Assembly: GCA_037129835.1 (NCBI GenBank)
Contig: JBAXUE010000002.1
Span: 2,334-66,333 of the forward strand
DNA from: a bacterium
Lineage (GTDB): Bacteria > Patescibacteriota > CPR2 > UBA1875 > CAIMLA01
Direction: 5' to 3'
DNA: 64,000 bases
The position numbers were made by a program, and so were the translations under genes. Each line of letters opens with the position of its first letter. The stretch's first letter is position 1. Positions 9,376 to 57,436 of the stretch are shown here, in pieces. The notes beneath the pieces were generated by a model that had not been told where the DNA came from, ran no database searches, and saw only the letters and a list, made by a program, of their open reading frames with translations.

Positions 9376-9693
9376 ATGTTACACGTAGATGATACAAACT
9401 TTGAAAAGGAAGTAGTAAAAAGTGATATTCCAGTAATAGTGGATTTTTTTGCAGATTGGTGTGGACCTTGTAAAATGATGGGCCCAATCTTTGAGGAAGT
9501 AGGAAAAAAGTTTCATGGTAAAGTTAAATTTGTTAAATTAAATGTCGACGAAGCCCAGAAAACAGCACAAAAATACGGTGTTATGAGTATTCCGACATTG
9601 ATTACCTTTAAGGTCGGTGAGCCAGTTGATACTTTGGTAGGACTTCAGGACGAAGATTCACTGTCAGAAAAAGCAGAAAAACTTTTAAAGTAA
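9376..9693 (+). CDS. trxA: Thioredoxin
   Basis: WCGPCK active site and about 105 aa. An AGGAGG RBS precedes the ATG at 9376. The longer 9301 ORF start has no RBS and would run through a leader hairpin. Confidence 0.85.
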   Translation: MLHVDDTNFEKEVVKSDIPVIVDFFADWCGPCKMMGPIFEEVGKKFHGKVKFVKLNVDEAQKTAQKYGVMSIPTLITFKVGEPVDTLVGLQDEDSLSEKAEKLLK

Positions 9694-9722
9694 AAATATT
9701 AAATAAAATATTCCCCGCCCTC

Positions 9723-9800
9723 TGTCATCCTGAGGAGCGAAATGGAATTTTTGCGACGTGAGGATCTCGGCAGATTGCCGCGCTTCGCTCGCAATGACGG
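9723..9800 (+). repeat. Palindromic intergenic element of the TGTCATCC...GGATCTC...ATGAC family (copy 1)
   Basis: 5' TGTCATCC, internal GAGGATCTC, 3' GCAATGACGG. The outer arms TGTCAT..AGCGAA and TTCGCT..ATGACG are inverted. It lies in the trxA-tig spacer. Confidence 0.5.
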
Positions 9801-9808
9801 AGATAAAT

Positions 9809-11095
9809 ATGAAAATTACACGAGAAGACCTAAAAGATAATAAAATTAAACTAACTATAGAGGTCGAAGCAGCTCGGCTGGCACTCGCTATCGATGAAGT
9901 ATATGCGAAGCTAGCGCCAACTGTGAAAATTTCCGGGTTTCGTCCTGGGAAGGCTCCAAAGAATATCGTCGAAAAAGAAGTCGGTAGTGAACGGTTTCAG
10001 TCTGAAGTTCTTGATATTATATTGCCTCAAACGTACTATGACGCTATCGTTAAAGAAAATTTAGAACCAGTCGGTGCACCAGAAGTAAAAATGATTAGTT
10101 ATGTGCCAAGTGACGGAATAAAATACGAAGCTGTGCTTGAAACAATGCCGAAGGTAACCGTTCCAGACATTACTAAAATCAGTGTCAAAAAAGATAAAAT
10201 CGAAGTAGGCGAAAAGGAAATTCTAGAAGTCCTAGTTGATTTATCTCGTCAATTAGCAAAAACAGTTGAAGTAAAACGACCAGCAAAAGCGGGGGATAAA
10301 CTCGAAATAGATTTCGAGGGGTTTATCGATAATATAGCATTTGATGGTGGTAACGGTGTCATGCAGCCATTAGTTCTCGGTTCTGGCGCTTTTATACCTG
10401 GTTTCGAAGAACAGCTCGAGGGCACAAAAGCTAAAGACGAAAAAGAAGTCGTAGTAACTTTTCCTAAGGAATATCATGCCGATAATTTAAAGGGAAAAGT
10501 AGCCACTTTTAAGGTAAAAGTGAACAAGGTTGAAGAGATAATAATGCCCGAACTTACAGATGCTTTTGCCAAAGAAGTAGGACCTTTTACGGATTTAGCT
10601 ACCCTGAAGGCAGACATAAAGAAGCAATTAATTTTTACCAAAGAAACCCAAGGACGCAGAAAAACTGAGGATGAGATTTTGGCGAAAATTGCCGATAAGG
10701 CAAGCTTTACCGTACCTGAAACTTTAATAGACCAGGAGCAACATAGAATGTTCCACGATGCAGAAAGTGGCTTAGCTCAGCAGGGAATGACTCTAGAGGG
10801 TTATCTTTCGGCAAATAACAAAACGAAAGAAGAGCTAGAAAAAGAAATGAGGCCAGAGGCCGAAAAGCGAGTAAAAATCGGGATGATACTATCCCAGCTT
10901 TCAAAAGACAAGGGCTATAAAGCAGGTGAGATCGAGATTGCTAAATACCTTGAGGACAGAATCGCGTCTACTCCAGAGGAACAAAGAGACGAAGCTAAAA
11001 AATACTACGAATCACACGATGGTAGGCATCAGCTAGAGAATGCGATCATCGGCAATAAAGTTCTAGAGTACATTTACGAAACTTGTACAAAATAA
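9809..11095 (+). CDS. tig: Trigger factor
   Basis: N-terminal MKITREDLKDNKIKLTIEV is the typical TF ribosome-binding domain start. It has a PPIase middle and a C-terminal domain. A GGAGA RBS precedes the ATG at 9809. Confidence 0.85.
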   Translation: MKITREDLKDNKIKLTIEVEAARLALAIDEVYAKLAPTVKISGFRPGKAPKNIVEKEVGSERFQSEVLDIILPQTYYDAIVKENLEPVGAPEVKMISYVPSDGIKYEAVLETMPKVTVPDITKISVKKDKIEVGEKEILEVLVDLSRQLAKTVEVKRPAKAGDKLEIDFEGFIDNIAFDGGNGVMQPLVLGSGAFIPGFEEQLEGTKAKDEKEVVVTFPKEYHADNLKGKVATFKVKVNKVEEIIMPELTDAFAKEVGPFTDLATLKADIKKQLIFTKETQGRRKTEDEILAKIADKASFTVPETLIDQEQHRMFHDAESGLAQQGMTLEGYLSANNKTKEELEKEMRPEAEKRVKIGMILSQLSKDKGYKAGEIEIAKYLEDRIASTPEEQRDEAKKYYESHDGRHQLENAIIGNKVLEYIYETCTK

Positions 11096-11112
11096 AATAA
11101 ATATTTAATAAT

Positions 11113-11142
11113 AAAATAGAGCCTTATTTGAGGCTCTATTTT
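11113..11142. terminator. Bidirectional hairpin terminator between the convergent tig and membrane-protein genes
   Basis: AAAATAGAGCC-ttatttg-AGGCTCTATTTT, an 11-bp stem flanked by A/T runs on both strands. Confidence 0.6.
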
Positions 11143-11154
11143 ATTCGGTATTAA

Positions 11155-11925
11155 TTAACCTTTAATTGAGACAAGATCTTCGTAGATTGAATAAACGTAA
11201 GCGAGTTCCAGTGGAATAATAAAAAAGTCAATAACTAAGCCACTGCCTTGTATTGTTATGCTTAAAATCAAAAATGCCAGGCTGGCTATCAGACCAAATA
11301 GGACAATTCTACCTAGAATAGCCCAGCGATAGCCTTTTGTAAGTTCTGCACTTCGAGAAAAAACGGCGAAGCCTCTTTTACCTTCGGCGATATACACCAT
11401 AGAAATCAGATAGTACATCAGTGCAATAATTATGCCTGGTACAATTAAGAATATTGAACCTATTGTTACCATTACCCACTCCACTATTAGTAAGCCCATA
11501 AGTGGTAGAAAATTCTTTAGCGCAAACAAAATAGAAGCGTTGATATTTTCTTTATCATTACTGGCGGTTTTAATAACAGAACGTTCTATGGCAACAGCCA
11601 TAAACATTTCGACTATTATAAAAAGAACAATCCCAATCAGTAACATCCCAATGTTATTTGTTGGTATCGTTGGAAATAGGTCTTTTCCGTTATATGTAAT
11701 GATCGTCCAAATTATTGGGCCGAAAGTTATTACGCCAATAATAAATAAGACAGCGAACATTATCGCGATTAATACTGAGGTTTGAACCCAGCCCTGTGTA
11801 AAGATTTCCCAAGAACTTTTGATAAGCTCTACAAAACCACGGATTTTTGTTTTTTCGCCAACGGTTTTCGCTGATGCGTGGACCGTTGCATTTTCTGCTT
11901 TCTTTGCTACGACTTTATTAGCCAT
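11155..11925 (-). CDS. Polytopic membrane protein of unknown function
   Basis: An AAGGAG RBS precedes the ATG at 11925 (MANKVVAKK...). There are about 6 predicted TM helices and no recognisable catalytic motif. Confidence 0.55.
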   Translation of the reverse strand: MANKVVAKKAENATVHASAKTVGEKTKIRGFVELIKSSWEIFTQGWVQTSVLIAIMFAVLFIIGVITFGPIIWTIITYNGKDLFPTIPTNNIGMLLIGIVLFIIVEMFMAVAIERSVIKTASNDKENINASILFALKNFLPLMGLLIVEWVMVTIGSIFLIVPGIIIALMYYLISMVYIAEGKRGFAVFSRSAELTKGYRWAILGRIVLFGLIASLAFLILSITIQGSGLVIDFFIIPLELAYVYSIYEDLVSIKG

Positions 11926-12030
11926 AAATTCTCCTTTAATAATATGCTTATTATTAGTTAGTGTCTTTCGCAAGTCAATAGTTATATAAAGCGAATTCTT
12001 TGTATGTTAAAATATATTTACTATAAATTT

Positions 12031-12105
12031 TGTCATCCCTGGTCGCAAACCCAGGGATCTCTCTCGGCCCATCCGAAGGAGATCCTCACTTTCGTAAGGA
12101 TGACA
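12031..12105 (+). repeat. Palindromic intergenic element of the TGTCATCC family (copy 2), in the clpP 5' leader
   Basis: TGTCATCC at the 5' end, an 8-bp hairpin ATCCCTGG/CCAGGGAT, the GGATCTC box, an inverted GAGATCC, and a terminal GGATGACA. An AAGGAG RBS lies immediately downstream. Confidence 0.55.
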
Positions 12106-12126
12106 CTGGAAGAATAAGGAGTAATT

Positions 12127-12756
12127 ATGAACGAAAACCATTCGACGAGCTCAGGTCTTGTCGGCAGTCAAATACTTATCCCCACAGTTATTCAAAAGAC
12201 TCATCTTGGAGAGCGCGCCTATGATATTTATTCAAAGCTACTAGAGGATAGAATAATATTCTTGGGCACTGGAATAGACGATACAGTTGCTAATCTTGTT
12301 ATCGCACAACTCTTATATCTTGAGAGTATTGATACCAAGAAAGATATAACTATGTATATCAATAGTCCTGGCGGAAGTGTTTCTTCGGCAATGGCGATAT
12401 ACGATACAATGCAATATTTGAAGCCAGATGTTTCAACTGTATGTTTGGGGATGTCTGCTAGTGCTGCGGCACTATTATTATCTTCGGGAGCAAAAGGTAA
12501 AAGATTTTCATTACCGAATTCAAGAGTCCTCATTCACCAACCTCTAGTTGAGGGTATGGCAGGACAAGCCACTGATATTGAGATTCATACTAAAGAACTT
12601 TTAAGAATTAAAAAACAGTTAGCAGAAATACTGGCTTCAAATACTGGTCAGAAAATAGAGAAGATTAATAATGATGTTGAACGTGATTACATAATGTCTG
12701 CTGACGAGGCAAAGAAATACGGGATTGTAGATGAGATTATAAGGAAAAGGAAATAA
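12127..12756 (+). CDS. clpP: ATP-dependent Clp protease proteolytic subunit
   Basis: Ser-His-Asp triad context ([15 protein letters not shown]) and about 209 aa. No clpX follows it. Confidence 0.9.
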
Positions 12757-12992
12757 TCACTCTATAAGATTGTCATTCCCGTGAAGGCGGTATTCTAGTA
12801 TCATGAACCCATAGTACTGATTATTTTCCATTTTCTCTTGAAAGAAAATGGAGTTAAGTTCAAGAAAAATCGAACTTCTTCGACTTTGTACGAAATTCGC
12901 TCCGCGTAATTTCTAGCATTCGTCGATAGTCGGGTGCTCGGCACCAAAGCAATTTTTCACAAGAATTAACGATTGATTAATTCATCCTCCAT

Positions 12993-13066
12993 TGTCATCC
13001 CTGGTCACAAACCCAGGGATCTCTCCAGAGCCCCAGAAGAATATTCTCGCTTTTGTGAAAATGATA
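12993..13066 (+). repeat. Palindromic intergenic element of the TGTCATCC family (copy 3), in the leader of the NIF3-like gene
   Basis: The first 34 nt are near-identical to copy 2 (TTGTCATCCCTGGTCaCAAACCCAGGGATCTCTC). The 3' end (AAATGATAAT) is degenerate. Confidence 0.5.
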
Positions 13067-13086
13067 ATAAGAAAGGAAAAAGAAGT

Positions 13087-14040
13087 ATGAAACTGCAAGA
13101 AATATATGAACTATTTGTCAAAAAGGGGATTGAAAACGATCCAAGGGGAAAAGAGCGGATCAAAAAAATCCTTGATAGCGAAAAGAAGAAGTACGAGAAA
13201 CTAGACAAAAAAGATAAGCAATATTACGACAAAGAGAAACTTACAAATCCTTTTGCCGACACCAGAATTCTTTTTGGTGATAAAGATACTGAAGTAAAAA
13301 GAATCCTTGTTGGTGTTGATATGGAAGTCGGAGAAGTCCTACTTGCAGATAGATTATCCGAAAAGGGTAAAAAAATTGATTTGGTTCTCGCTCATCATCC
13401 TGAGGGGATTGCTCTTGCAGGACTCGATGAAGTGATGCATCTACAAGCTGATGTCCTCAGCCAATATGGAGTCCCTATCAATATCGCAGAAGGTGTTATC
13501 GCGGGGAGGATCAAGGAAGTTTCTAGGGGCCTTGCACCAGTAAATCATCAAAGAGCGGTGGATGCTGCCAGAATTTTAGACATTCCGATGATGTGTTCTC
13601 ATACAGTTGCCGATAACATGGTCTACGAATTTGTAAAAGATATTATGGACAAAGAAAAACCAGAGACCGTCGGGGAAGTATTGGATTTGTTACTTACAAT
13701 TCCTGAATATCAGGAAGGTAAGAAACTAGGCGCTGGCCCAAGGTTGTTTACTGGTAGTCCAGAAAACCGGGCTGGTAAAGTCGCAGTAACCGAAATGACC
13801 GGTGGTACTAGTGGAGCCAAGGAAATATTTGAAAAGATGTCTCACGCGGGTATCGGCACTGTTATTGGTATGCACATGAGCGAAGAACATCGCAAAGAAG
13901 CTGAAAAATATCACCTCAATGTCGTCATTGCTGGTCACATGGCCTCAGACTCTCTTGGCATGAATCTACTACTCGATGAAATTGAGAAAAAGAACGTGGA
14001 AATATTACCAGTCAGTGGCCTAATCCGGGTCAAGAGATAA
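13087..14040 (+). CDS. NIF3/YqfO-family dinuclear-metal-centre protein (inferred)
   Basis: An AAGGAAA RBS precedes the ATG at 13087. An MKLQEI start, an HHP motif (LVLAHHPEG) and a C-terminal GHMASD motif (GHYASE-like) are typical of NIF3. There is a central insertion. Confidence 0.5.
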   Translation: MKLQEIYELFVKKGIENDPRGKERIKKILDSEKKKYEKLDKKDKQYYDKEKLTNPFADTRILFGDKDTEVKRILVGVDMEVGEVLLADRLSEKGKKIDLVLAHHPEGIALAGLDEVMHLQADVLSQYGVPINIAEGVIAGRIKEVSRGLAPVNHQRAVDAARILDIPMMCSHTVADNMVYEFVKDIMDKEKPETVGEVLDLLLTIPEYQEGKKLGAGPRLFTGSPENRAGKVAVTEMTGGTSGAKEIFEKMSHAGIGTVIGMHMSEEHRKEAEKYHLNVVIAGHMASDSLGMNLLLDEIEKKNVEILPVSGLIRVKR

Positions 14041-21797: not shown

Positions 21798-21809
21798 GGG
21801 AGTAATAAA

Positions 21810-22286: not shown

Positions 22287-22312
22287 ACAATTAATAATTT
22301 AAAATTCCTTTT

Positions 22313-22371
22313 CGTCATCCTGAACTAGATTCAGGATCTCACGAGATTTCGAAATGATTTCGGAATGACGG
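22313..22371 (+). repeat. Palindromic intergenic element of the TGTCATCC family (copy 4), in the rpsG-fusA spacer
   Basis: CGTCATCC, an 8-bp hairpin ATCCTGAA/TTCAGGAT, the GGATCTC box, and a terminal GGAATGACGG. Confidence 0.5.
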
Positions 22372-25654: not shown

Positions 25655-25700
25655 TAATCCGCCTACGTTAGCAGCGACGGACGGACAAGAAGGAGACAAA
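25655..25700 (+). promoter_or_regulatory. Conserved 5' leader segment immediately upstream of tuf; duplicated upstream of rplC
   Basis: AATCCGCCTACGTTAGCAGCGACGGACGGACAAGAAGGAGACAAAATG shares about 35/45 nt with 30322-30369. Confidence 0.45.
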
Positions 25701-30321: not shown

Positions 30322-30369
30322 TTAAAATCCGCCTATGCAAAAAGCTACGGACGGACAAGAAGGCGAACA
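30322..30369 (+). promoter_or_regulatory. Leader segment upstream of rplC that duplicates the tuf leader
   Basis: AAAATCCGCCTATGCAAAAAGCTACGGACGGACAAGAAGGCGAACAATG versus the tuf leader. The shared core is ATCCGCCTAYG..GC.ACGGACGGACAAGAAGG.GA. Confidence 0.45.
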
Positions 30370-49514: not shown

Positions 49515-49519
49515 ATGGT

Positions 49520-49630
49520 TTGTCATCCTTGTCATTCGACTCTGAGGTGAGAGACACCTCATCGCTCAGACTCGAAGAGCGGAAGCAAGGATCTCTTTCA
49601 CCAGAGATTCCTGCCTTCGCAGGAATGACA
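49520..49630 (+). repeat. Palindromic intergenic element of the TGTCATCC family (copy 5, longest), between rpmG and tRNA-Trp
   Basis: TGTCATCC at the 5' end, a long internal hairpin (CGACTCTGAGGTG..CACCTCA.CGCTCAGACTCG), the GGATCTC box, a hairpin CCTGC-cttc-GCAGG, and a terminal GAATGACAG. Confidence 0.5.
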
Positions 49631-49743
49631 GTATAGTTTCTTCACAGTGGGGTCCCCGAAATCTGCAGGATTTAAGGGGAAGAGGAAGAGTCGCGAAAAG
49701 TTATAGCAACAAAGTTGCGAATACTGACAGCGGACTCTGACGA

Positions 49744-49925: not shown

Positions 49926-51197
49926 TTAGATTTCGACTACTTTACGATCACGAACCGCTAGTTTGACGTTTAAGTTTCGAATTAATTGGGTCTTTTCGGA
50001 CTCAGAACCCTTTTCGAGCACATATTTGGCATAACCTTTGATTACCTCTGTTTTGGAATATTTTTTGTTGGGATTCATGGTTTCGAGCATGTTCTCGAAC
50101 TTTTTAATGGCTTTGGCCAGTCCTGGCTCAATCGATATCTTCTTAACCGTCAGTCTACTGGAAATGATTAGTAGCTGTTCCACTAGGTCCCTTTCGGTTA
50201 TATACGGCTCGTGGCATTCATCTTTGGCGTGTCTGACACAGTGATAGTAAACATGACGGTTTTTATCCCCATTTTTAAGTTTCTTGAACTTTTCTTCACC
50301 AACCATCATTGCACCGCAACTGTAGCAGGTCAAAAATCTCCGAAATGTAAATTCCCTGGAACCCCATTTAACTCTTTTAGGGGCTACGATCTGTTTTTGG
50401 GCTTCGTCAAACAGCTCTTTGGTCACTAATGGTTCATGGGAACCTTTATACCATTTCCCGCTACCGATCGGATATTCAAACATTCCATAGTAGAAAGGAT
50501 TCTTTAGCATTAAATATATTGAGCTTAGGTTCACAAGCTTTCCTTTTCTTGAAGTGGCTCCAATGATGTCTAACCAGACTTTGAGAGTGCGGCCACTCTC
50601 ACCTTTAGCCGCTCGTTTGAACATCTCTGTGACAAACGGTCCACGTTCGGGATCAATGACAATATCATGAACCCCGGCCATCACTCGATTGTAATAACCG
50701 ATTGGCGGCATACACGGTCTCCAGCCCATCTCACATTTAGCCCTGATGCCTCTTTTTACGCTCTCGCCTCTGTTGTCGTTTTCAAGCTTGGCTTGAGAGC
50801 AGAGAATCATCAGCATAAACTTCTCGCTCGGAGTGTTTGTAAAGCTTTGGGTGAAGGTTCTGATTTTAAGAAGTTTCTTATCGTCCATCAGATCCACTAG
50901 CGAACCCAAGTCGCCAGCATTTCTTGAAAGTCGGTCGGGTGCCCAGGTAAGTAGGCTATTTACCTCGCCGCTCCTTAAATCGGTCAGTAACTGCATAAAA
51001 ACTGGTCGTTGTCCCGATTGTTTGGCGGAATAGCTTTCCTGAAGAACTTTGACGACATTAATGCCTTCTTTGACTGCTAACTCCTTCATTTCTTTGATTT
51101 GAGAATCAATTGACATCGCTTGCCGCTCATCAGACTCGGATGATTTTCTGGCGTAAAGGCAGTACTTTAATTCGACTTTATCTGCTGTATTTTCCAT
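49926..51197 (-). CDS. Large serine recombinase (resolvase/integrase family)
   Basis: N-terminal resolvase catalytic domain (YARKSSESDERQ..SIDSQ.....V.E), a recombinase domain, and a C-terminal zinc-ribbon-like CYSCG...YYHC. 423 aa. Confidence 0.8.
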   Translation of the reverse strand: MENTADKVELKYCLYARKSSESDERQAMSIDSQIKEMKELAVKEGINVVKVLQESYSAKQSGQRPVFMQLLTDLRSGEVNSLLTWAPDRLSRNAGDLGSLVDLMDDKKLLKIRTFTQSFTNTPSEKFMLMILCSQAKLENDNRGESVKRGIRAKCEMGWRPCMPPIGYYNRVMAGVHDIVIDPERGPFVTEMFKRAAKGESGRTLKVWLDIIGATSRKGKLVNLSSIYLMLKNPFYYGMFEYPIGSGKWYKGSHEPLVTKELFDEAQKQIVAPKRVKWGSREFTFRRFLTCYSCGAMMVGEEKFKKLKNGDKNRHVYYHCVRHAKDECHEPYITERDLVEQLLIISSRLTVKKISIEPGLAKAIKKFENMLETMNPNKKYSKTEVIKGYAKYVLEKGSESEKTQLIRNLNVKLAVRDRKVVEI

Positions 51198-51322
51198 CGG
51201 GGACGATGGTATCGCTGATTTGAGAGGAATGTAAGTAGAAAATTTGATTATCTTAGGTACAAAAGTGTTTATTTTCTAATCTTTTTGCTATATATTGAAG
51301 ATAGTTTAAAAAAGGAGCAAAT

Positions 51323-52528
51323 ATGCCAGGAGAAGCACCAGCACCATATGAACCAGATTATAAAGAGCACGAAGAAGTTTATGAGACTATGACGGATGAG
51401 CAGGAAAAGCTTACTAGAGAACGAGAAGCTGAACAGTTTAATCGGGAGAATGATCCCAGTATAGCGTTCGAAATGGCGCGACAGGAAGACTACGGCTACA
51501 CTCAAGTAGAGTATCTTACTCGACTTGGGGAAATTTTGGATAAAAGTGACGATGAGATAAATAAGTATGAAGCTACCCATGCTTTAGTTGACGAATATCG
51601 TGAGAAAGTGGACGAGGGGCATAGATTTGGAAGAAGTATACGCTTTAAAGACTTTGCACTGGGTAATAGCTTTACCGAAGATAGGGACAGAAGAGTATCT
51701 AAGGTAGAAACTCCAAAAGACCTTGAAGAGGCGAAGGATTGGACAAAACGACAAGCAGAAGACGCGGCTGAATATTACCAAAGAAGAGGAAGACAAGAAA
51801 AGTTTCTCCAACAGGTCGGGGATCAGCTTTATGAAGAAATAGGGCTTGAGAAAGGTCAGCCATTATCGGCGGCCGAAAATACAGAGTTTCAAAAAGAGCT
51901 TAAGGATAGAGTAGAGAAAGCGAGAGAGGAATATTCATATTCAGACCTTCTTGCGGAGGTCCACTCAATATGGGCAACATACAATGTCTTATGGGGTAGG
52001 ATTACGAATATATTGGAAGATGAAAGAGCAAAATCTCATGTTAAGGGAAGGGAGTCCAGGGATCAAGACGTTGAGCGGTTCGATCTACCATCGCTAGATG
52101 ACAGAGATACTGGCGATGCCCTTGGTGGGAAAATCGAGTATATGTACCCAGAATCTGTTGGGAATGTGATGGGAAGGCTAATCTTACGAAAAATGGACAT
52201 CACAAAGGGCAAATACGCCGGCAACCTTGTTGTTAAGGAAGAGTCTCCACTTCAAGGAAAAATCGATTCATGGGTGGAGCAATATAAGGATCTGGCTGGA
52301 CTTGGCTTTAATTTCGATAGCAAATATGGGCTTCTGGACGCTACGCTATCGAAATTACTCGAAGAAGAATTAATACAACGCTCGCTTACGCCTGAAGCTT
52401 ATAAAGATAAAGATAAGAGGGCTAAGCTTATTAGCCAAATTGGAAATGAGTATAACGCACCCAAAATGCTCGCTGGTGTAGCGGAAAACGAGCTTAAGCG
52501 TAGATTTAATAAGGAAGAGACGATATAA
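51323..52528 (+). CDS. Highly charged 401-aa hypothetical protein (cargo of the integrative element)
   Basis: An AAAGGAG RBS is present. E/K/R/D-rich and probably coiled-coil, with no recognisable catalytic motif. Divergent from the recombinase gene. Confidence 0.5.
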   Translation: MPGEAPAPYEPDYKEHEEVYETMTDEQEKLTREREAEQFNRENDPSIAFEMARQEDYGYTQVEYLTRLGEILDKSDDEINKYEATHALVDEYREKVDEGHRFGRSIRFKDFALGNSFTEDRDRRVSKVETPKDLEEAKDWTKRQAEDAAEYYQRRGRQEKFLQQVGDQLYEEIGLEKGQPLSAAENTEFQKELKDRVEKAREEYSYSDLLAEVHSIWATYNVLWGRITNILEDERAKSHVKGRESRDQDVERFDLPSLDDRDTGDALGGKIEYMYPESVGNVMGRLILRKMDITKGKYAGNLVVKEESPLQGKIDSWVEQYKDLAGLGFNFDSKYGLLDATLSKLLEEELIQRSLTPEAYKDKDKRAKLISQIGNEYNAPKMLAGVAENELKRRFNKEETI

Positions 52529-53731: not shown

Positions 53732-53809
53732 ATATATGTGGGAGAGCGGAAGCTCGTTATGACCACAAACCCGCCTCCGCTAATAGCTACGGCAGGGTAA
53801 AGGAGAAAA

Positions 53810-54235: not shown

Positions 54236-54250
54236 TAAACTAACACCACG

Positions 54251-54301
54251 CTGTCATCCTTGCGAAAGCGAGGATATCCTCAGTCAAGCTAAGGATGACA
54301 G
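54251..54301 (+). repeat. Palindromic intergenic element of the TGTCATCC family (copy 6, shortest), in the rplK-rplA spacer
   Basis: CTGTCATCC, a hairpin TCCTTGC-gaaa-GCGAGGA, GGATATCCTC (a variant of the GGATCTC box), and a terminal GGATGACAG that is the exact inverse of the 5' end. Confidence 0.5.
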
Positions 54302-54350
54302 TGAGGCGACTGTGGGAGCTTGAAAGGCGTTATTACCACGAAAGGACATC

Positions 54351-55790: not shown

Positions 55791-56303
55791 ATGGTCGAAG
55801 TAAAAAAGGAAGAAAAGAAAAATAATAATATACTAATTGTTTTATTGGCAATATTACTGACCACTCTATTGGTCGGTGGCACCACTTGGTATTTTATGGA
55901 CCAAAATGCAAAAAATGAAAAAATCACAACAGATGCGGCGATTTCAAAATTAAACAAAAAAATCACCACTTCTGAGAAAAACAATAAAAATACGGTTACG
56001 CCAACTCCTACTGTTTCGGCTGCGTTGACCCCAACACCGACCACCGCCAAAGACACCGTAGAAGCGCTAAGAACCTTCTGCCAGGCTAATGGAGCCCAAA
56101 ATGCCGTTACGGGTGGGATTAGTTACATGGAGTCAGCAAATGGGATTTATGGCAATTGTAGTTTGGAAAATGCAATGTTAATTTCAACAAACGTTAATGG
56201 AACCTGGACGAAGATTTATACAGGTAACGGCGTTATCGAGACCGCCCTTTGTGACCAATATAAGATCCCAAATAAAATGAGCGGTGGTACTTGCAATTAC
56301 TAG
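55791..56303 (+). CDS. Membrane-anchored secreted protein, paralog 1 (TM anchor, Thr/Pro linker, C-terminal 4-Cys domain)
   Basis: N-terminal TM helix, a TPTPT-rich linker, and a C-terminal domain with 4 Cys ending ...YKIPNKMSGGTCNY. An AAGGAGGGGG RBS is present. Paralogous to 56322-56858. Confidence 0.7.
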   Translation: MVEVKKEEKKNNNILIVLLAILLTTLLVGGTTWYFMDQNAKNEKITTDAAISKLNKKITTSEKNNKNTVTPTPTVSAALTPTPTTAKDTVEALRTFCQANGAQNAVTGGISYMESANGIYGNCSLENAMLISTNVNGTWTKIYTGNGVIETALCDQYKIPNKMSGGTCNY

Positions 56304-56321
56304 AGAAAAAATAGGAGTATT

Positions 56322-56858
56322 ATGACCAAAGAACTAGAAACTACAAAAAAAATAATAGATAGACGTAAAATGACTGTTGTTGTAGGAATAACTACAGTAG
56401 CGGTGGCTTTAGTTTGTGGTGCAGTTTGGTATTATATGGCACAGCAAGAAAATTTTTCTACCGAAAAAACTAAAAAAGAAACAGTCATTTCGAAAGATAG
56501 CATAATAGTAACAGCGTCGGTAACACCTACAACTACAATATCTCCTTCAGGTACTCCGTCGCCAACACCAACGATTAAAACAAATACTAATAGCGCTCAA
56601 GCGTTAAAAGCATTTTGCCAAGAGAATGGTGGTTCAAGTGATGCGACGGATGGAATAAGTTATATGGAGACGGCAAATGGTGTTTATGGTATCTGTACTA
56701 TGGTAAATGGGAAAACCTTAGAAAGCACAACATTTATAGCCGCTGAGATAAGTGGTGTATGGACTAAGGTTTGGAATGGGAATGGTGTGATTGATCTTAC
56801 TACTTGTAATAAATATAAGATCCCAAATAAAATGAGCGGTGGGGCCTGTAACTACTAA
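56322..56858 (+). CDS. Membrane-anchored secreted protein, paralog 2
   Basis: Same architecture as paralog 1. The C-terminal domain aligns (AFCQENGG...ISYMETANGVYG.C......CNKYKIPNKMSGGACNY). Confidence 0.7.
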   Translation: MTKELETTKKIIDRRKMTVVVGITTVAVALVCGAVWYYMAQQENFSTEKTKKETVISKDSIIVTASVTPTTTISPSGTPSPTPTIKTNTNSAQALKAFCQENGGSSDATDGISYMETANGVYGICTMVNGKTLESTTFIAAEISGVWTKVWNGNGVIDLTTCNKYKIPNKMSGGACNY

Positions 56859-56875
56859 AAAATATAGGGGGAATT

Positions 56876-57436
56876 ATGCTAAAAGTAAAAGATACTTCAA
56901 AAAATAAAATTAACTGGCGAATAATCGTCATAACTGTAGTGGTTGCCTTAGTAACTGCTGGCGCAGTAGGTGGCGGTGTCTGGTATAATATGGACCAAAA
57001 TGAAAAAAATGCTAAGACGGCAAACGAAAAAGAATTAGCAACTCTTAAAAGTCAAATTAAAGACACTCCTACGATTACGCCAACTTCTAACCCGACACCT
57101 ACTTCAACATCAAAAGCCGATATCGTTCTTACTGATAGTGATTATTTAAATTTTTTAACTATAAATAAATCAGGATGGGTAAAGACAGATTCTTATGTTG
57201 CGCCTATTATATCGAAAAATGATGGAACTTGGGCTATTACATCTCCGTTGCCAATTTTATATGACACCACGAGCGGGTATCACATTCCTGGCATGGGTGG
57301 TTCTATCTATGTTTGGCATAAAGTAAGTGGTTCATGGGAATTTGTTGGACAAGGGGGAGAGGGTGGATATGATGATGCAGTAAAGGCAGTTTATTCCCAA
57401 ATTCCCATCACTGTCATTCCAGAAAGTAGTCGCTAG
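56876..57436 (+). CDS. Membrane-anchored secreted protein, paralog 3 (same anchor and linker, different Cys-free C-terminal domain)
   Basis: TM anchor and a TPT linker (DTPTITPTSNPTPTSTSK), followed by a distinct Gly/Trp/Tyr-rich domain. An AGGGGGAAT RBS is present. Confidence 0.65.
   Translation: MLKVKDTSKNKINWRIIVITVVVALVTAGAVGGGVWYNMDQNEKNAKTANEKELATLKSQIKDTPTITPTSNPTPTSTSKADIVLTDSDYLNFLTINKSGWVKTDSYVAPIISKNDGTWAITSPLPILYDTTSGYHIPGMGGSIYVWHKVSGSWEFVGQGGEGGYDDAVKAVYSQIPITVIPESSR

What the first reader, a model, noticed from the sequence alone, without database searches (positions are those of the whole stretch)
12031..12105. Family of short palindromic intergenic elements: TGTCATCC - hairpin - GGATCTC - ... 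- (G/A)ATGACA, six or more copies on the coding strand of leaders and spacers
Copies are at 9723-9800 (trxA-tig), 12031-12105 (clpP leader), 12993-13066 (NIF3 leader; its first 34 nt are near-identical to copy 2), 22313-22371 (rpsG-fusA), 49520-49630 (rpmG-tRNA-Trp) and 54251-54301 (rplK-rplA). A partial TGTCATTCC lies at 12771. All share a 5' (T/C)GTCATCC, a 3' inverse (G/A)ATGAC(A/G), an internal GGATCTC box and nested hairpins. Length varies from 51 to 111 nt. All copies have the same orientation relative to flanking genes, so they would be transcribed into mRNA leaders or intercistronic regions. They resemble REP/MITE-like elements but could equally be a cis-acting RNA motif (processing or stability site) or a palindromic operator for a regulator.
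Basis: seen in the sequence. Interest (0 to 1): 0.7.

Follow-up and report, generated by a model that had tools for sequence, protein, structure and literature searches.

The report
Ssn-type hairpin repeats, paired, in Patescibacteria
The short palindromic elements between genes are real and belong to a widespread, recently described class of DNA hairpin repeats (NTS / Ssn-related motifs) that small GIY-YIG single-strand nucleases recognise, here found as back-to-back pairs in a tiny-genome Patescibacteria bacterium; it is a new host for a known kind of element.

Summary
The window holds 13 copies of one unit, YGTCAT-stem-loop-stem'-ATC(T)C. They form six convergent pairs (one unit on each strand) plus one decayed singleton. 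All lie in non-coding spacers, and the stem covaries.

A covariance model built only from these units finds almost nothing in 1.48 Mb of other genomes. It does find 16 bona fide NTS repeats around the Neisseria gonorrhoeae ssnA gene.

The units therefore belong to the NTS / Ssn-related-motif class (Chenal et al. 2025). These are ssDNA hairpins that small GIY-YIG Ssn nucleases bind and cut just upstream of.

The window's commonest unit subtype occurs in at least 117 metagenome contigs of 32-72% GC. In several it flanks SsnA homologues, and in a Patescibacteria MAG a pair of related units lies next to one.

Syntenic relatives show presence/absence at the same spacers, including 0-nt and 11-nt empty sites. 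That fits REP/MITE-like dynamics and not a conserved regulatory RNA.

Three things are not shown. No ssn gene lies in the 84 kb I could read. The published SRM regex does not match the window's AT-richer stems. Any effect on the mRNAs is untested.

Verdict: new member of a known kind, moderate interest.

The parts
9720..9772 (+). Unit 1L (trxA-tig spacer): TGTCAT-CCTGAGG...long loop...GTGAGG-ATCTC. Left arm of doublet 1 (9723-9800).
   Evidence: R1 27.1 bits, E 8e-5; sequence
9767..9802 (-). Unit 1R: CGTCAT-TGC-GAGCGAAGCGCG-GCA-ATCTG. Its stem is ATTGC/GCAAT, not ATCC/GGAT.
   Evidence: R1 28.1 bits; covariation counted
12028..12065 (+). Unit 2L (clpP leader): TGTCATCCCTGG-TCGCAAAC-CCAGGGATCTC. 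Left arm of doublet 2 (12031-12105).
   Evidence: R1 33.7 bits. 97% identical to unit 3L (family D7). The whole doublet is 93% identical to L154 806-881 in a different context.
12075..12108 (-). Unit 2R: TGTCATCCTTAC-GAAA-GTGAGGATCTC.
   Evidence: R1 39.0 bits. Identical at 26 of 27 positions to the unit downstream of an SsnA homologue in L196.
12768..12801 (+). Singleton, decayed: TGTCATTCCCGTGAAGGCGGTATTCTAG, 14 nt after the clpP stop codon.
   Evidence: R1 27.6 bits. Its ortholog in relative L210 is an intact canonical NTS, TGTCATTCCCGCGAAGGCGGGAATCTAG, at 38.9 bits.
12990..13027 (+). Unit 3L (NIF3 leader). Left arm of doublet 3 (12993-13066).
   Evidence: R1 35.5 bits. Absent from L210, L212 and L214.
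13036..13069 (-). Unit 3R, degenerate: ATCAT-TTTCAC-AAAA-GCGAGA-ATATT. GTC has become ATC and the C after the stem is lost.
   Evidence: R1 30.0 bits. This doublet does not fold better than shuffles, z -1.15.
22310..22344 (+). Unit 4L (rpsG-fusA spacer): CGTCATCCTGAA-CTAGA-TTCAGGATCTC. Left arm of doublet 4 (22313-22371).
   Evidence: R1 34.2 bits
22339..22373 (-). Unit 4R: CGTCATTCCGAAA-TCA-TTTCGAAATCTC.
   Evidence: R1 29.1 bits; doublet folds with z -3.0
49518..49599 (+). Unit 5L (rpmG-tRNA-Trp spacer): TGTCATCCTTG-[about 54-nt insert carrying a second GTCAT and its own hairpins]-CAAGGATCTC. Left arm of doublet 5 (49520-49630).
   Evidence: Not in the training set; found by R1 at 21.1 bits, E 0.0036; fold
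49600..49633 (-). Unit 5R: TGTCATTCCTGC-GAAG-GCAGGAATCTC.
   Evidence: R1 38.0 bits; doublet folds with z -4.3
54249..54282 (+). Unit 6L (rplK-rplA spacer): TGTCATCCTTGC-GAAA-GCGAGGATATC. Left arm of doublet 6 (54251-54301). The two units overlap at GGATATCC.
   Evidence: R1 39.2 bits. 90% complementary to unit 2R (pair I1).
54269..54303 (-). Unit 6R: TGTCATCCTTAG-CTTGA-CTGAGGATATC.
   Evidence: R1 33.4 bits; doublet folds with z -4.7

Best explanation
The elements are DNA-level hairpin repeats of the NTS / Ssn-related-motif (SRM) class.

**The unit.** Each unit reads 5'-YGTCAT | stem | loop | stem' | ATC(T)C-3'. On single-stranded DNA it folds into a hairpin closed by A-T and T-A pairs. The invariant GTC lies just 5' of the hairpin and a C just 3' of it. 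In Neisseria those are the positions that decide cleavage and binding by SsnA, a roughly 95-aa GIY-YIG nuclease. SsnA binds the hairpin only as ssDNA and cuts a few nucleotides upstream.

**The pairs.** Here the units sit as convergent pairs: a + strand unit, a short spacer, then a - strand unit. Each DNA strand therefore carries one correctly oriented unit. This has the same layout as the unit(+)-ssn-unit(-) modules seen in other contigs, but without the gene. The pairs thus look like miniature, non-autonomous (MITE/REPIN-like) derivatives.

**Where they land.** They occupy tolerated non-coding spacers, including leaders and intercistronic gaps of core operons. They are gained, lost and decay quickly between related genomes.

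**Consequences.** The mRNAs carry extra hairpins as a by-product.

**Shown here.**
- The unit anatomy and its covariation.
- That the units belong to one motif class with authentic NTS.
- That the same unit subtype flanks SsnA homologues elsewhere, and that a Patescibacteria contig carries an SsnA homologue next to a doublet.
- Presence/absence among relatives.

**Inferred.**
- That this genome encodes, or recently encoded, a cognate Ssn.
- That Ssn or another enzyme spreads the units.
- Any role in restricting recombination of incoming ssDNA.
For: 1. **Anatomy.** 13 units form 6 convergent doublets plus 1 singleton. The 7-bp stem is paired in 91.7% of cells, against 19-52% when the partner is slid by 1-3 columns. 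Five of 7 pairs show changes on both sides. Four of 6 doublets fold as ssDNA with z -3.0 to -4.7.
2. **Specificity.** R1 gives one hit of at least 27 bits in 1.48 Mb of 80 other genomes. That hit is a canonical GTCATTCCCGCGAAGGCGGGAATCC.
3. **Literature.** NTS = CGTCATTCCCGCGMAVGCGGGAATCYRG and NTSvar = CGTCATACTCGGGNNNNNCCCGAGTATC. The C after the palindrome is crucial for binding and the 3 nt upstream for cleavage. Extensions added at the loop position are tolerated. Only 2% of NTS lie inside genes (PMC11893778).
4. **Cross-detection.** R1, built only from window units, finds 16 NTS around N. gonorrhoeae ssnA (21-33 bits) and 3 around an Aeromonas homologue.
5. **Spread.** The pattern GTCATCCTNNCGAAAGNNAGGATNTC (21 fixed bases) hits at least 117 metagenome stretches of 32-72% GC. 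Among neighbouring units there, 54 pairs are convergent, 6 divergent and about 5 tandem.
6. **Link to ssn.** Four of those 117 loci, chosen only by the DNA pattern, encode SsnA homologues 48-59% identical to NgSsnA, flanked by R1 units. The unit downstream of L196 ssn2 matches window unit 2R at 26 of 27 positions.
7. **Patescibacteria.** A Patescibacteria MAG contig (L229) encodes an SsnA-type protein (45 of 94 residues identical to NgSsnA). A convergent doublet lies 47 nt upstream of it.
8. **Turnover in relatives.** In syntenic relatives (ClpP 83-89% identical) the sites are patchy. The clpP-NIF3 spacer is 330 nt here, 229 nt in L210 with an intact canonical NTS, and 0 nt in L212 and L214. 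The rpsG-fusA spacer holds a doublet here, a single different unit in L212, none in L210, and is only 11 nt in L214.
9. **Copying of whole doublets.** Doublet 2 recurs at 93% identity upstream of a tRNA gene on an unrelated contig.
Against: - No GIY-YIG/ssn gene was found in the window, in the 10 kb either side, or in 20 kb of each of three relatives. The rest of the 372.6-kb contig and of the MAG could not be read.
- The published SRM regex gives 0 hits in the window, because the stems here are AT-richer. It also misses 7 of the 16 R1 hits next to Neisseria ssnA.
- Three generic small GIY-YIG genes of Patescibacteria MAGs have no units within 6 kb. So not every small GIY-YIG protein is a partner.
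- NmSsnA loses activity when the stem sequence is changed while the hairpin is kept. The window has at least 6 different stems, so a single Ssn may not serve them all and many copies may be relics.
- Three units have A in place of the critical C after the stem.
- The trxA-tig doublet persists, much diverged, at the same site in three lineages. That could hint at some host-level use.
Confidence: 0.72

Rival explanations
1. cis-acting RNA element. The hairpins would be selected in the mRNA leaders and intercistronic regions of highly expressed genes. They would act as processing, stability or protein-binding sites.
For: - All copies lie between or just upstream of co-directional genes (trxA-tig, clpP, NIF3, rpsG-fusA, rplK-rplA), so they are probably transcribed.
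- Folds are stable.
- A diverged doublet is kept at the trxA-tig site in L212 and L214.
Against: - The same units occur in unrelated contexts across contigs of 32-72% GC.
- In 40 low-GC loci, ORFs next to units match the window's (largely translation-apparatus) proteins about as often as ORFs in general: 4 of 87 neighbours against 11 of 308 ORFs overall.
- Close relatives have empty sites.
- The architecture is symmetric on both strands, which an RNA signal does not need.
- No Rfam match, even at E<=1.
- None is followed by a T-run.
- SsnA does not bind RNA.
Confidence: 0.1
2. Classical REP/REPIN elements. They would be mobilised by a REP-associated tyrosine transposase (RAYT, an IS200/IS605-like Y1 enzyme).
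For: - The inverted doublets, able to form one long hairpin, look like REPINs.
- The distribution is non-coding, multi-copy and patchy.
- A Y1_Tnp gene lies 6.5 kb from an ssn gene in one unrelated contig, L231.
Against: - The units start with GTCAT, not the GTAG tetranucleotide that characterises REPs (my own knowledge of Nunvar 2010 and Bertels & Rainey 2011).
- They are scored by the same model as authentic NTS.
- They flank ssn genes, not RAYT genes.
- No PF01797 hit appears in the Pfam tables for the 84 kb read.
Confidence: 0.06
3. Palindromic operator or other double-stranded binding site. A transcription factor or nucleoid protein would use it to control core operons.
For: The elements have palindromic symmetry and lie close to start codons. 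The ends TGTCAT/ATGACA resemble a -35 hexamer.
Against: - The stem sequences differ between copies with compensatory changes. That conserves a hairpin, not a duplex sequence.
- Spacing and loop length vary from 51 to 111 nt.
- The units occur across phyla in unrelated contexts.
- Relatives lack them at the same operons.
Confidence: 0.03

Closest known systems
NTS / Ssn-related motifs (SRM) with SsnA-family GIY-YIG ssDNA nucleases (Chenal et al., Nat Commun 2025, PMC11893778)
   Same: - The unit has the same layout: YGTCAT + hairpin + ATC(Y).
- The conserved positions are the same, GTC upstream and C downstream.
- The copies are non-coding and numerous.
- One covariance model scores both sets.
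- The relative L210 carries an NTS matching the Neisseria consensus at 27 of 28 positions, at the site orthologous to window 12771.
- The window's unit subtype flanks SsnA homologues elsewhere.
   Different: - The stems here are AT-richer (ATCC.../...GGAT, ATTGC/GCAAT) and fail the published degenerate regex.
- The host is a Patescibacteria bacterium, a group the paper's main text does not mention.
- No ssn gene has yet been seen in this genome.
- The copies sit inside core operons rather than around surface-protein genes.
Neisseria dRS3 repeats and NIMEs (dRS3-RS-dRS3 mosaics)
   Same: Both are hairpin repeats with an ATTCC.../...GGAAT core, arranged in alternating orientation with short spacers. 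Convergent pairs are also visible around gonococcal ssnA.
   Different: The exact dRS3 definition ATTCCC-N8-GGGAAT is not met by any window unit; the best are 2 mismatches away. There is no evidence here of the phage-integration role reported for dRS3.
REP / BIME / REPIN elements with RAYT transposases
   Same: Both are non-coding imperfect palindromes, often as inverted doublets. Both have a single-copy enzyme gene flanked by the repeat, and both are gained and lost between relatives.
   Different: The 5' signature differs (GTCAT against GTAG). The associated enzyme family also differs: a GIY-YIG nuclease, not an HUH/Y1 transposase.
Bacterial MITEs such as Correia elements (my own knowledge)
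   Same: Both are short, non-autonomous elements bounded by inverted repeats. Both insert in non-coding regions, are co-transcribed with neighbouring genes, and can create -35-like hexamers.
   Different: I could define no target-site duplication or terminal inverted repeats of an IS. The ends here are self-folding hairpin units.

Membership tests
NTS / Ssn-related motif (SRM) hairpin repeats | 5' flank HGTCWY immediately before the palindrome (the GTC is needed for cleavage) | tested here: met
   12 of 13 units; unit 13036-13069(-) has ATC (alignment)
NTS / Ssn-related motif (SRM) hairpin repeats | Imperfect palindrome of about 20-50 nt able to form a hairpin | tested here: met
   The 7-bp stem is paired in 91.7% of cells and 5 of 7 pairs have compensatory changes; ssDNA folds
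NTS / Ssn-related motif (SRM) hairpin repeats | C directly after the palindrome (3' flank RNCYNB), crucial for Ssn binding | tested here: met
   10 of 13 units have ATC; three (13036-13069 and both units of doublet 6) have ATA
NTS / Ssn-related motif (SRM) hairpin repeats | Match to the published degenerate search sequence HGTCWYN(0-2)YYVSBRHN(0-5)WNVSBRGN(0-2)RNCYNB | tested here: not met
   0 hits in the window, against 0.15 expected in shuffles. The regex requires a GC-rich stem core. It does match the orthologous unit in L210 and 9 of the 16 R1 hits beside Ng ssnA.
NTS / Ssn-related motif (SRM) hairpin repeats | Same sequence-plus-structure profile as experimentally validated NTS | tested here: met
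   Model R1, built from window units only, scores 16 NTS around N. gonorrhoeae ssnA at 21-33 bits and a canonical unit in L015 at 29.6 bits
NTS / Ssn-related motif (SRM) hairpin repeats | An ssn gene (single-domain GIY-YIG, cd10448) in the same genome, usually flanked by the motif | tested here: inconclusive
   None in the window, in the 10 kb either side, or in the relatives' 20-kb loci. About 290 kb of the contig and the rest of the MAG could not be read. Elsewhere, SsnA homologues in four metagenome loci are flanked by the window's unit subtype or related R1 units, and a Patescibacteria contig has a doublet of related units next to one.
NTS / Ssn-related motif (SRM) hairpin repeats | Bound and cut as ssDNA, but not as dsDNA or RNA, by the cognate Ssn | not testable with these tools
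   Biochemistry is required; see next steps
NTS / Ssn-related motif (SRM) hairpin repeats | Multi-copy and almost always outside genes | tested here: met
   13 units at 7 sites, all in the roughly 8-10% of the window that is non-coding
Neisseria dRS3 | Exact 20-bp ATTCCC-N8-GGGAAT | tested here: not met
   No exact match. Units at 12775 and 49607 match with 2 mismatches.
REP / REPIN-RAYT | Conserved GTAG tetranucleotide at the 5' end of the palindrome | tested here: not met
   The units begin with (T/C)GTCAT
REP / REPIN-RAYT | A RAYT (Y1_Tnp, PF01797) gene flanked by the repeats | tested here: inconclusive
   No PF01797 among the Pfam hits for genes in the 84 kb read. The whole genome was not available.
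REP / REPIN-RAYT | Inverted doublets able to form a long hairpin | tested here: met
   6 doublets in the window. In metagenome loci, 54 convergent against 6 divergent neighbouring pairs. Folds.
Curated structured RNAs (Rfam 15) | Match to any covariance model | tested here: not met
   Only tRNAs reach gathering score. Nothing falls on the elements at E<=1.
Intrinsic terminators | GC-rich hairpin followed by a T-run | tested here: not met
   No terminator-like site coincides with doublets 1-3 in the region scanned, 9500-13200. By eye, no doublet is followed by a T-run.

The most novel reading that the evidence does not exclude
The convergent doublets would be non-autonomous miniatures of unit(+)-ssn-unit(-) modules. 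Ssn-family GIY-YIG nucleases would then be the mobilising enzymes of a distinct, ssDNA-based class of mobile element. That class would have moved between phyla, since near-identical 26-nt units occur in genomes of 32-72% GC, and would have colonised even the roughly 1-Mb genomes of Patescibacteria, down to the leaders of ribosomal-protein, clpP and tig genes. A further step is possible. Patescibacteria are thought to depend on DNA uptake, so the Ssn/unit pair might be kept to control what incoming single-stranded DNA can recombine around core operons.
Probability: 0.2. Interest if true: 0.75.

Novelty: new member of a known kind. Interest (0 to 1): 0.4.

Why it matters
It ties an anonymous repeat in an uncultured, reduced-genome bacterium to a class with a known biochemical partner, the ssDNA-specific Ssn nucleases. 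That gives a direct experiment to run.

It shows that the published SRM search pattern under-detects the class. It misses AT-rich stems entirely and also 7 of the 16 model hits next to gonococcal ssnA. Surveys of Ssn-related repeats are therefore likely to be underestimates, and a covariance model works better.

It documents that these repeats turn over quickly even inside the most conserved operons of Patescibacteria. That matters for three things:
- annotation, because the repeats generate spurious ORFs such as '...IPAFAGMT';
- assembly, because contigs from other samples break inside a doublet;
- any interpretation of leader structures in these genomes.

The gene-less convergent doublets alongside unit-ssn-unit modules strengthen the idea, raised but untested in the 2025 paper, that Ssn systems behave like insertion sequences with MITE-like derivatives.

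Tried and rejected
- **Literature search on bare 7/8-mers** returned only primer noise. The search that included 'dRS3' and 'ATTCCCGCG' found the key paper.
- **Published SRM regex:** 0 hits in the window. I kept this as a failed membership feature and did not treat it as disproof.
- **GIY-YIG gene in the window:** a motif scan of all six frames and tblastn with NgSsnA, an Aeromonas homologue and a consensus found nothing.
- **Extending the window by about 10 kb each side:** no further units and no ssn.
- **First GIY-YIG regex on the 80 listed metagenome loci** found nothing. It was too strict; tblastn later found SsnA homologues in L166, L175, L180 and L196.
- **Generic small GIY-YIG proteins of Patescibacteria** (P0144, P0185, P0180): no R1 units within 6 kb. 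They are therefore not evidence for the system.
- **Rickettsia and Legionella plasmids carrying NTS-like units:** no GIY-YIG gene annotated nearby.
- **The conserved ~190-nt clpP-NIF3 spacer as a decayed ssn gene:** no similarity, even at E<=1000.
- **A preference for translation or highly expressed genes:** not supported. In 40 low-GC loci, 4 of 87 unit-neighbouring ORFs hit a window protein, against 11 of 308 ORFs overall.
- **Strain-level polymorphism:** all other samples are 99.97-100% identical to the window, so this was uninformative. The apparent variant in L004 is a Nextera adapter at a contig end.
- **Promoter and terminator consensus scans** were uninformative.
ClpP homologues gave the useful relatives instead.
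Full report

Yes. Reading the six stated intervals and the partial copy shows the described 5' (T/C)GTCATCC, the 3' (G/A)ATGA(C/T), and GGATCTC in five of the six.
- thioredoxin then trigger factor;
- ClpP;
- a NIF3-family protein;
- S7 then EF-G;
- L11 then L1 (Pfam tables);
- L33 then tRNA-Trp.

Short words alone are weak evidence. GTCATCC occurs 11 times against 4.35 expected. GGATCTC occurs 6 times against 5.4. The two flanks with a free gap give 8 against 3.2. The case therefore rests on the composite structure.

**2. Anatomy**

Each 'element' is two inverted copies of one unit: YGTCAT - stem - loop - stem' - ATC(T)C.
- In doublet 2 the + strand unit reads TGTCATCCCTGG-tcgcaaac-CCAGGGATCTC.
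- The - strand unit of the same doublet reads TGTCATCCTTAC-gaaa-GTGAGGATCTC.

The window holds 13 units. They form six convergent doublets (a + unit followed by a - unit) and one singleton at 12771.

The A-T and T-A pairs that close the hairpin and the flanks are nearly invariant. The inner stem differs between copies: ATCC/GGAT, ATTGC/GCAAT, ATTCC/GGAAT, ATTTT/GAAT.

On the 12-unit alignment, the 7-bp stem is paired in 91.7% of cells. With the 3' partner slid by 1-3 columns the figure drops to 19-52%. Five of the seven pairs carry changes on both sides.

Unit 49518-49599 has a roughly 54-nt insert in its loop, with a second GTCAT and hairpins of its own.

As ssDNA, four of the six doublets fold better than shuffled versions (z -3.0 to -4.7). 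They form a closing GTCAT/ATGAC helix around two or three hairpins. Doublets 1 and 3 do not fold significantly better.

**3. Significance and controls**

I built a covariance model (R1) from 12 units.
- It scores the training units at E 4e-8 to 8e-5.
- It recovers the untrained thirteenth unit at E 0.0036.
- The next-best match in the 64 kb window is at E 0.035.
- Across 80 rpoB-centred loci from other genomes (1.48 Mb, including several Patescibacteria and Saccharibacteria) it gives a single hit above 27 bits.
- The roughly 9 kb on either side of the window holds no more units.

All seven sites fall in the roughly 8-10% of the window that is non-coding. If insertion were blind to coding sequence, the chance of that is about 1e-7 to 2e-8.

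**4. Source**

The window is part of a 372.6-kb contig, ENA ERZ27300174 k141_20016. The same sequence, 99.97-100% identical, occurs in four other samples.

The closest rpoB genes among the species representatives returned are only about 59% identical, and several of them come from Patescibacteria MAGs. GC content is 39%.

Two contigs from other samples end inside doublet 2, as expected for a repeat.

**5. Relatives**

ClpP homologues gave three syntenic relatives with ClpP 89%, 87% and 83% identical: L210, L212 and L214. Units are patchy among them.

| Site | Window | L210 | L212 | L214 |
|---|---|---|---|---|
| clpP leader | doublet | none | none | none |
| clpP-NIF3 spacer | 330 nt: decayed singleton and doublet 3 | 229 nt: intact TGTCATTCCCGCGAAGGCGGGAATCTAG at the site orthologous to the singleton | 0 nt | 0 nt |
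| rpsG-fusA spacer | doublet | 111 nt, no unit | single, different unit | 11 nt |
| trxA-tig spacer | doublet | not recognisable | strongly diverged doublet | strongly diverged doublet |

In L212 and L214 the NIF3 start codon directly follows the clpP stop codon, which is why that spacer is 0 nt. In place of the clpP-leader doublet the relatives have a terminator-like hairpin followed, in L210 and L212, by a promoter-like sequence.

This is the gain, loss and decay pattern of a repeat family. It is not the pattern of a conserved regulatory RNA.

In addition, the whole 76-nt doublet 2 recurs at 93% identity just upstream of a tRNA gene. That copy is on a contig with no other similarity to the window (L154).

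**6. What the units are**

A literature search led to Chenal et al. 2025 (PMC11893778). They describe:
- the Neisseria Transformation Sequence, CGTCATTCCCGCGMAVGCGGGAATCYRG, which encompasses the old dRS3 repeat;
- a variant, CGTCATACTCGGGNNNNNCCCGAGTATC;
- more generally, 'Ssn-related motifs'.

These are hairpins bound only as ssDNA by SsnA, a 94-aa single-domain GIY-YIG nuclease that cuts a few nucleotides upstream. Key properties reported there:
- The C just after the palindrome is the most important base for binding.
- The three bases before the palindrome matter most for cleavage.
- Extensions added at the loop position are tolerated.
- Only 2% of copies lie inside genes.
- ssn genes are typically flanked by the motif.

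The window's units have exactly this layout and the same conserved positions. I tested the link in four ways.

(a) *Published regex.* It gives 0 hits in the window, because it demands a GC-rich stem core. It does match the L210 ortholog, but only 9 of the 16 model hits beside gonococcal ssnA.

(b) *Cross-detection.* PLSDB holds a gonococcal chromosome filed as a plasmid. A tblastn search located its ssnA (94 aa). R1, built from window units alone, finds 16 NTS copies in the surrounding 3.2 kb at 21-33 bits. It also finds three around an Aeromonas homologue.

(c) *Metagenome scan.* I scanned for the window's commonest unit subtype, GTCATCCTNNCGAAAGNNAGGATNTC (21 fixed bases).
- Neighbouring units there are convergent 54 times, divergent 6 times and tandem about 5 times. 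The doublet is therefore a general architecture.
- Four of these 117 loci, chosen by DNA pattern alone, encode proteins 48-59% identical to gonococcal SsnA: L166, L175, L180, and L196 with two copies.

(d) *Layout around ssn genes.* In five of the seven ssn genes examined, a + unit lies upstream and a - unit downstream. That is the doublet layout with the gene as spacer. The unit downstream of L196 ssn2 differs from window unit 12075-12108(-) at one position in 27.

An SsnA-type protein also occurs on a contig labelled Patescibacteria that carries secE-nusG-rplK-rplA (L229). It matches NgSsnA at 45 of 94 residues. A convergent doublet lies 47 nt upstream of it.

**7. What is not shown**

- I found no ssn gene in the window, its flanks, or the relatives' 20-kb loci. 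I could not read the remaining roughly 290 kb of the contig or the rest of the MAG.
- Three generic small GIY-YIG genes of Patescibacteria, only 33-40% identical to SsnA, have no units nearby.
- The diversity of stems in the window is awkward for a single enzyme. NmSsnA is reported to be sensitive to stem sequence. Some copies are clearly decayed: the units at 12768-12801 and 13036-13069.
- Whether the hairpins affect the mRNAs is untested.
- They are not terminators, since none is followed by a T-run and the consensus scan of 9500-13200 flags none of doublets 1-3.
- No Rfam family matches them, even at E<=1.

**8. Mechanism**

Most likely (about 0.7): these are selfish or semi-domesticated ssDNA-hairpin repeats of the NTS/SRM class. 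They are present as miniature convergent pairs and are recognised by an Ssn-type nuclease encoded elsewhere in this genome, or lost from it.

- The convergent layout puts one cleavable unit on each strand.
- How copies spread is unknown, and the 2025 paper also leaves this open.
- Co-transcription with core genes is a by-product.

The rivals score lower: a cis-acting RNA element (0.1), classical REP/RAYT (0.06) and a duplex operator (0.03). The reasons are set out under each rival.

**9. Novelty**

The class is known: dRS3 and NIME for two decades, NTS/SRM and Ssn since 2025. What is new here is modest.
- A Patescibacteria host.
- An AT-rich stem variant that escapes the published search pattern.
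- Clear empty-site evidence inside core operons.
- Gene-less doublets with the same layout as unit-ssn-unit modules, which supports an IS/MITE-like view.

I rate it a new member of a known kind, interest 0.4.

Noticed in passing
window 25656-25696, 30326-30366, 53768-53808: A second, unrelated repeated leader motif, AAYCCGCCTAYG..AGC.ACGGACGGACAAGAAGGAGA. It ends in the ribosome-binding site directly upstream of the tuf, rplC (S10 operon) and rplK start codons (family D2; alignment). CCGCC and GGACGG could pair with one mismatch. It is not seen upstream of rplK in the Patescibacteria contig L229.
   Followed up: partly
window 49926-52528: A large serine recombinase (Resolvase + Recombinase + Zn_ribbon_recom, 423 aa, - strand) and a 401-aa ORF with no Pfam hit lie between tRNA-Trp and secE-nusG, next to doublet 5. 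This may be an integrated element at the tRNA-Trp / secE junction.
   Followed up: no
window 12800-12990 and L210 10650-10832: A roughly 190-nt non-coding stretch between clpP and NIF3 is conserved between the window and relative L210. It includes the hairpin CCATTTTCT-cttga-AGAAAATGG. It is entirely absent from L212 and L214, where the two genes abut. There is no Rfam match and no trace of an ssn gene. It could be cargo carried in with the unit, like the RS segment of a NIME, or a small RNA.
   Followed up: partly
window 21798-21809 versus L210 19569-19675, L212 19337-19441, L214 19392-19508: The rpsL-rpsG spacer is 12 nt in the window. In all three relatives it is 105-117 nt and carries a conserved hairpin-rich sequence (gcagtgctattagctgc...gcagctaaagtattc). 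This lineage has lost a leader or intercistronic structure.
   Followed up: no
window 11155-11973 (- strand): A 272-aa ORF (only a weak UPF0259 hit on record; no Pfam hit in the scan) lies between tig and clpP on the opposite strand. In L210, L212 and L214 tig is followed directly by a terminator-like hairpin and clpP. It appears to be a lineage-specific insertion, next to the lineage-specific doublet 2.
   Followed up: no
window 55791-57436: Three tandem paralogous ORFs of 170-186 aa with no Pfam family, downstream of a desulfoferrodoxin-like gene (families D3 and D5).
   Followed up: no
L089 11063-12206 (just beyond the window's right end) versus L091 3725-4954: In the source contig no gene is called in the 1.1 kb after mraY. 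Contigs of the same organism from other samples have a 409-aa FtsW there. This may be a disrupted or differently assembled ftsW.
   Followed up: no
L002 start = window 12075; L004 1-47: Contigs from two other samples end inside doublet 2. One of them carries a 47-nt Nextera adapter remnant at its end. So these repeats break assemblies, and adapter sequence has been left in a public assembly.
   Followed up: yes
window 49520-49636 (+), L015 955-1119 (-): The units generate recurrent spurious ORFs with tell-tale peptides...SPEIPAFAGMTV here and MSFPRRRES... in L015. These are useful as an annotation flag for this repeat class.
   Followed up: partly
L229 3216-3350: In the Patescibacteria contig, the doublet upstream of ssn is itself nested inside a longer 24-nt inverted repeat, GGCTTACGTGTTTGCTTATAGCCA ... 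TGGCTATAAGCAAACACGTAAGCC.
   Followed up: no
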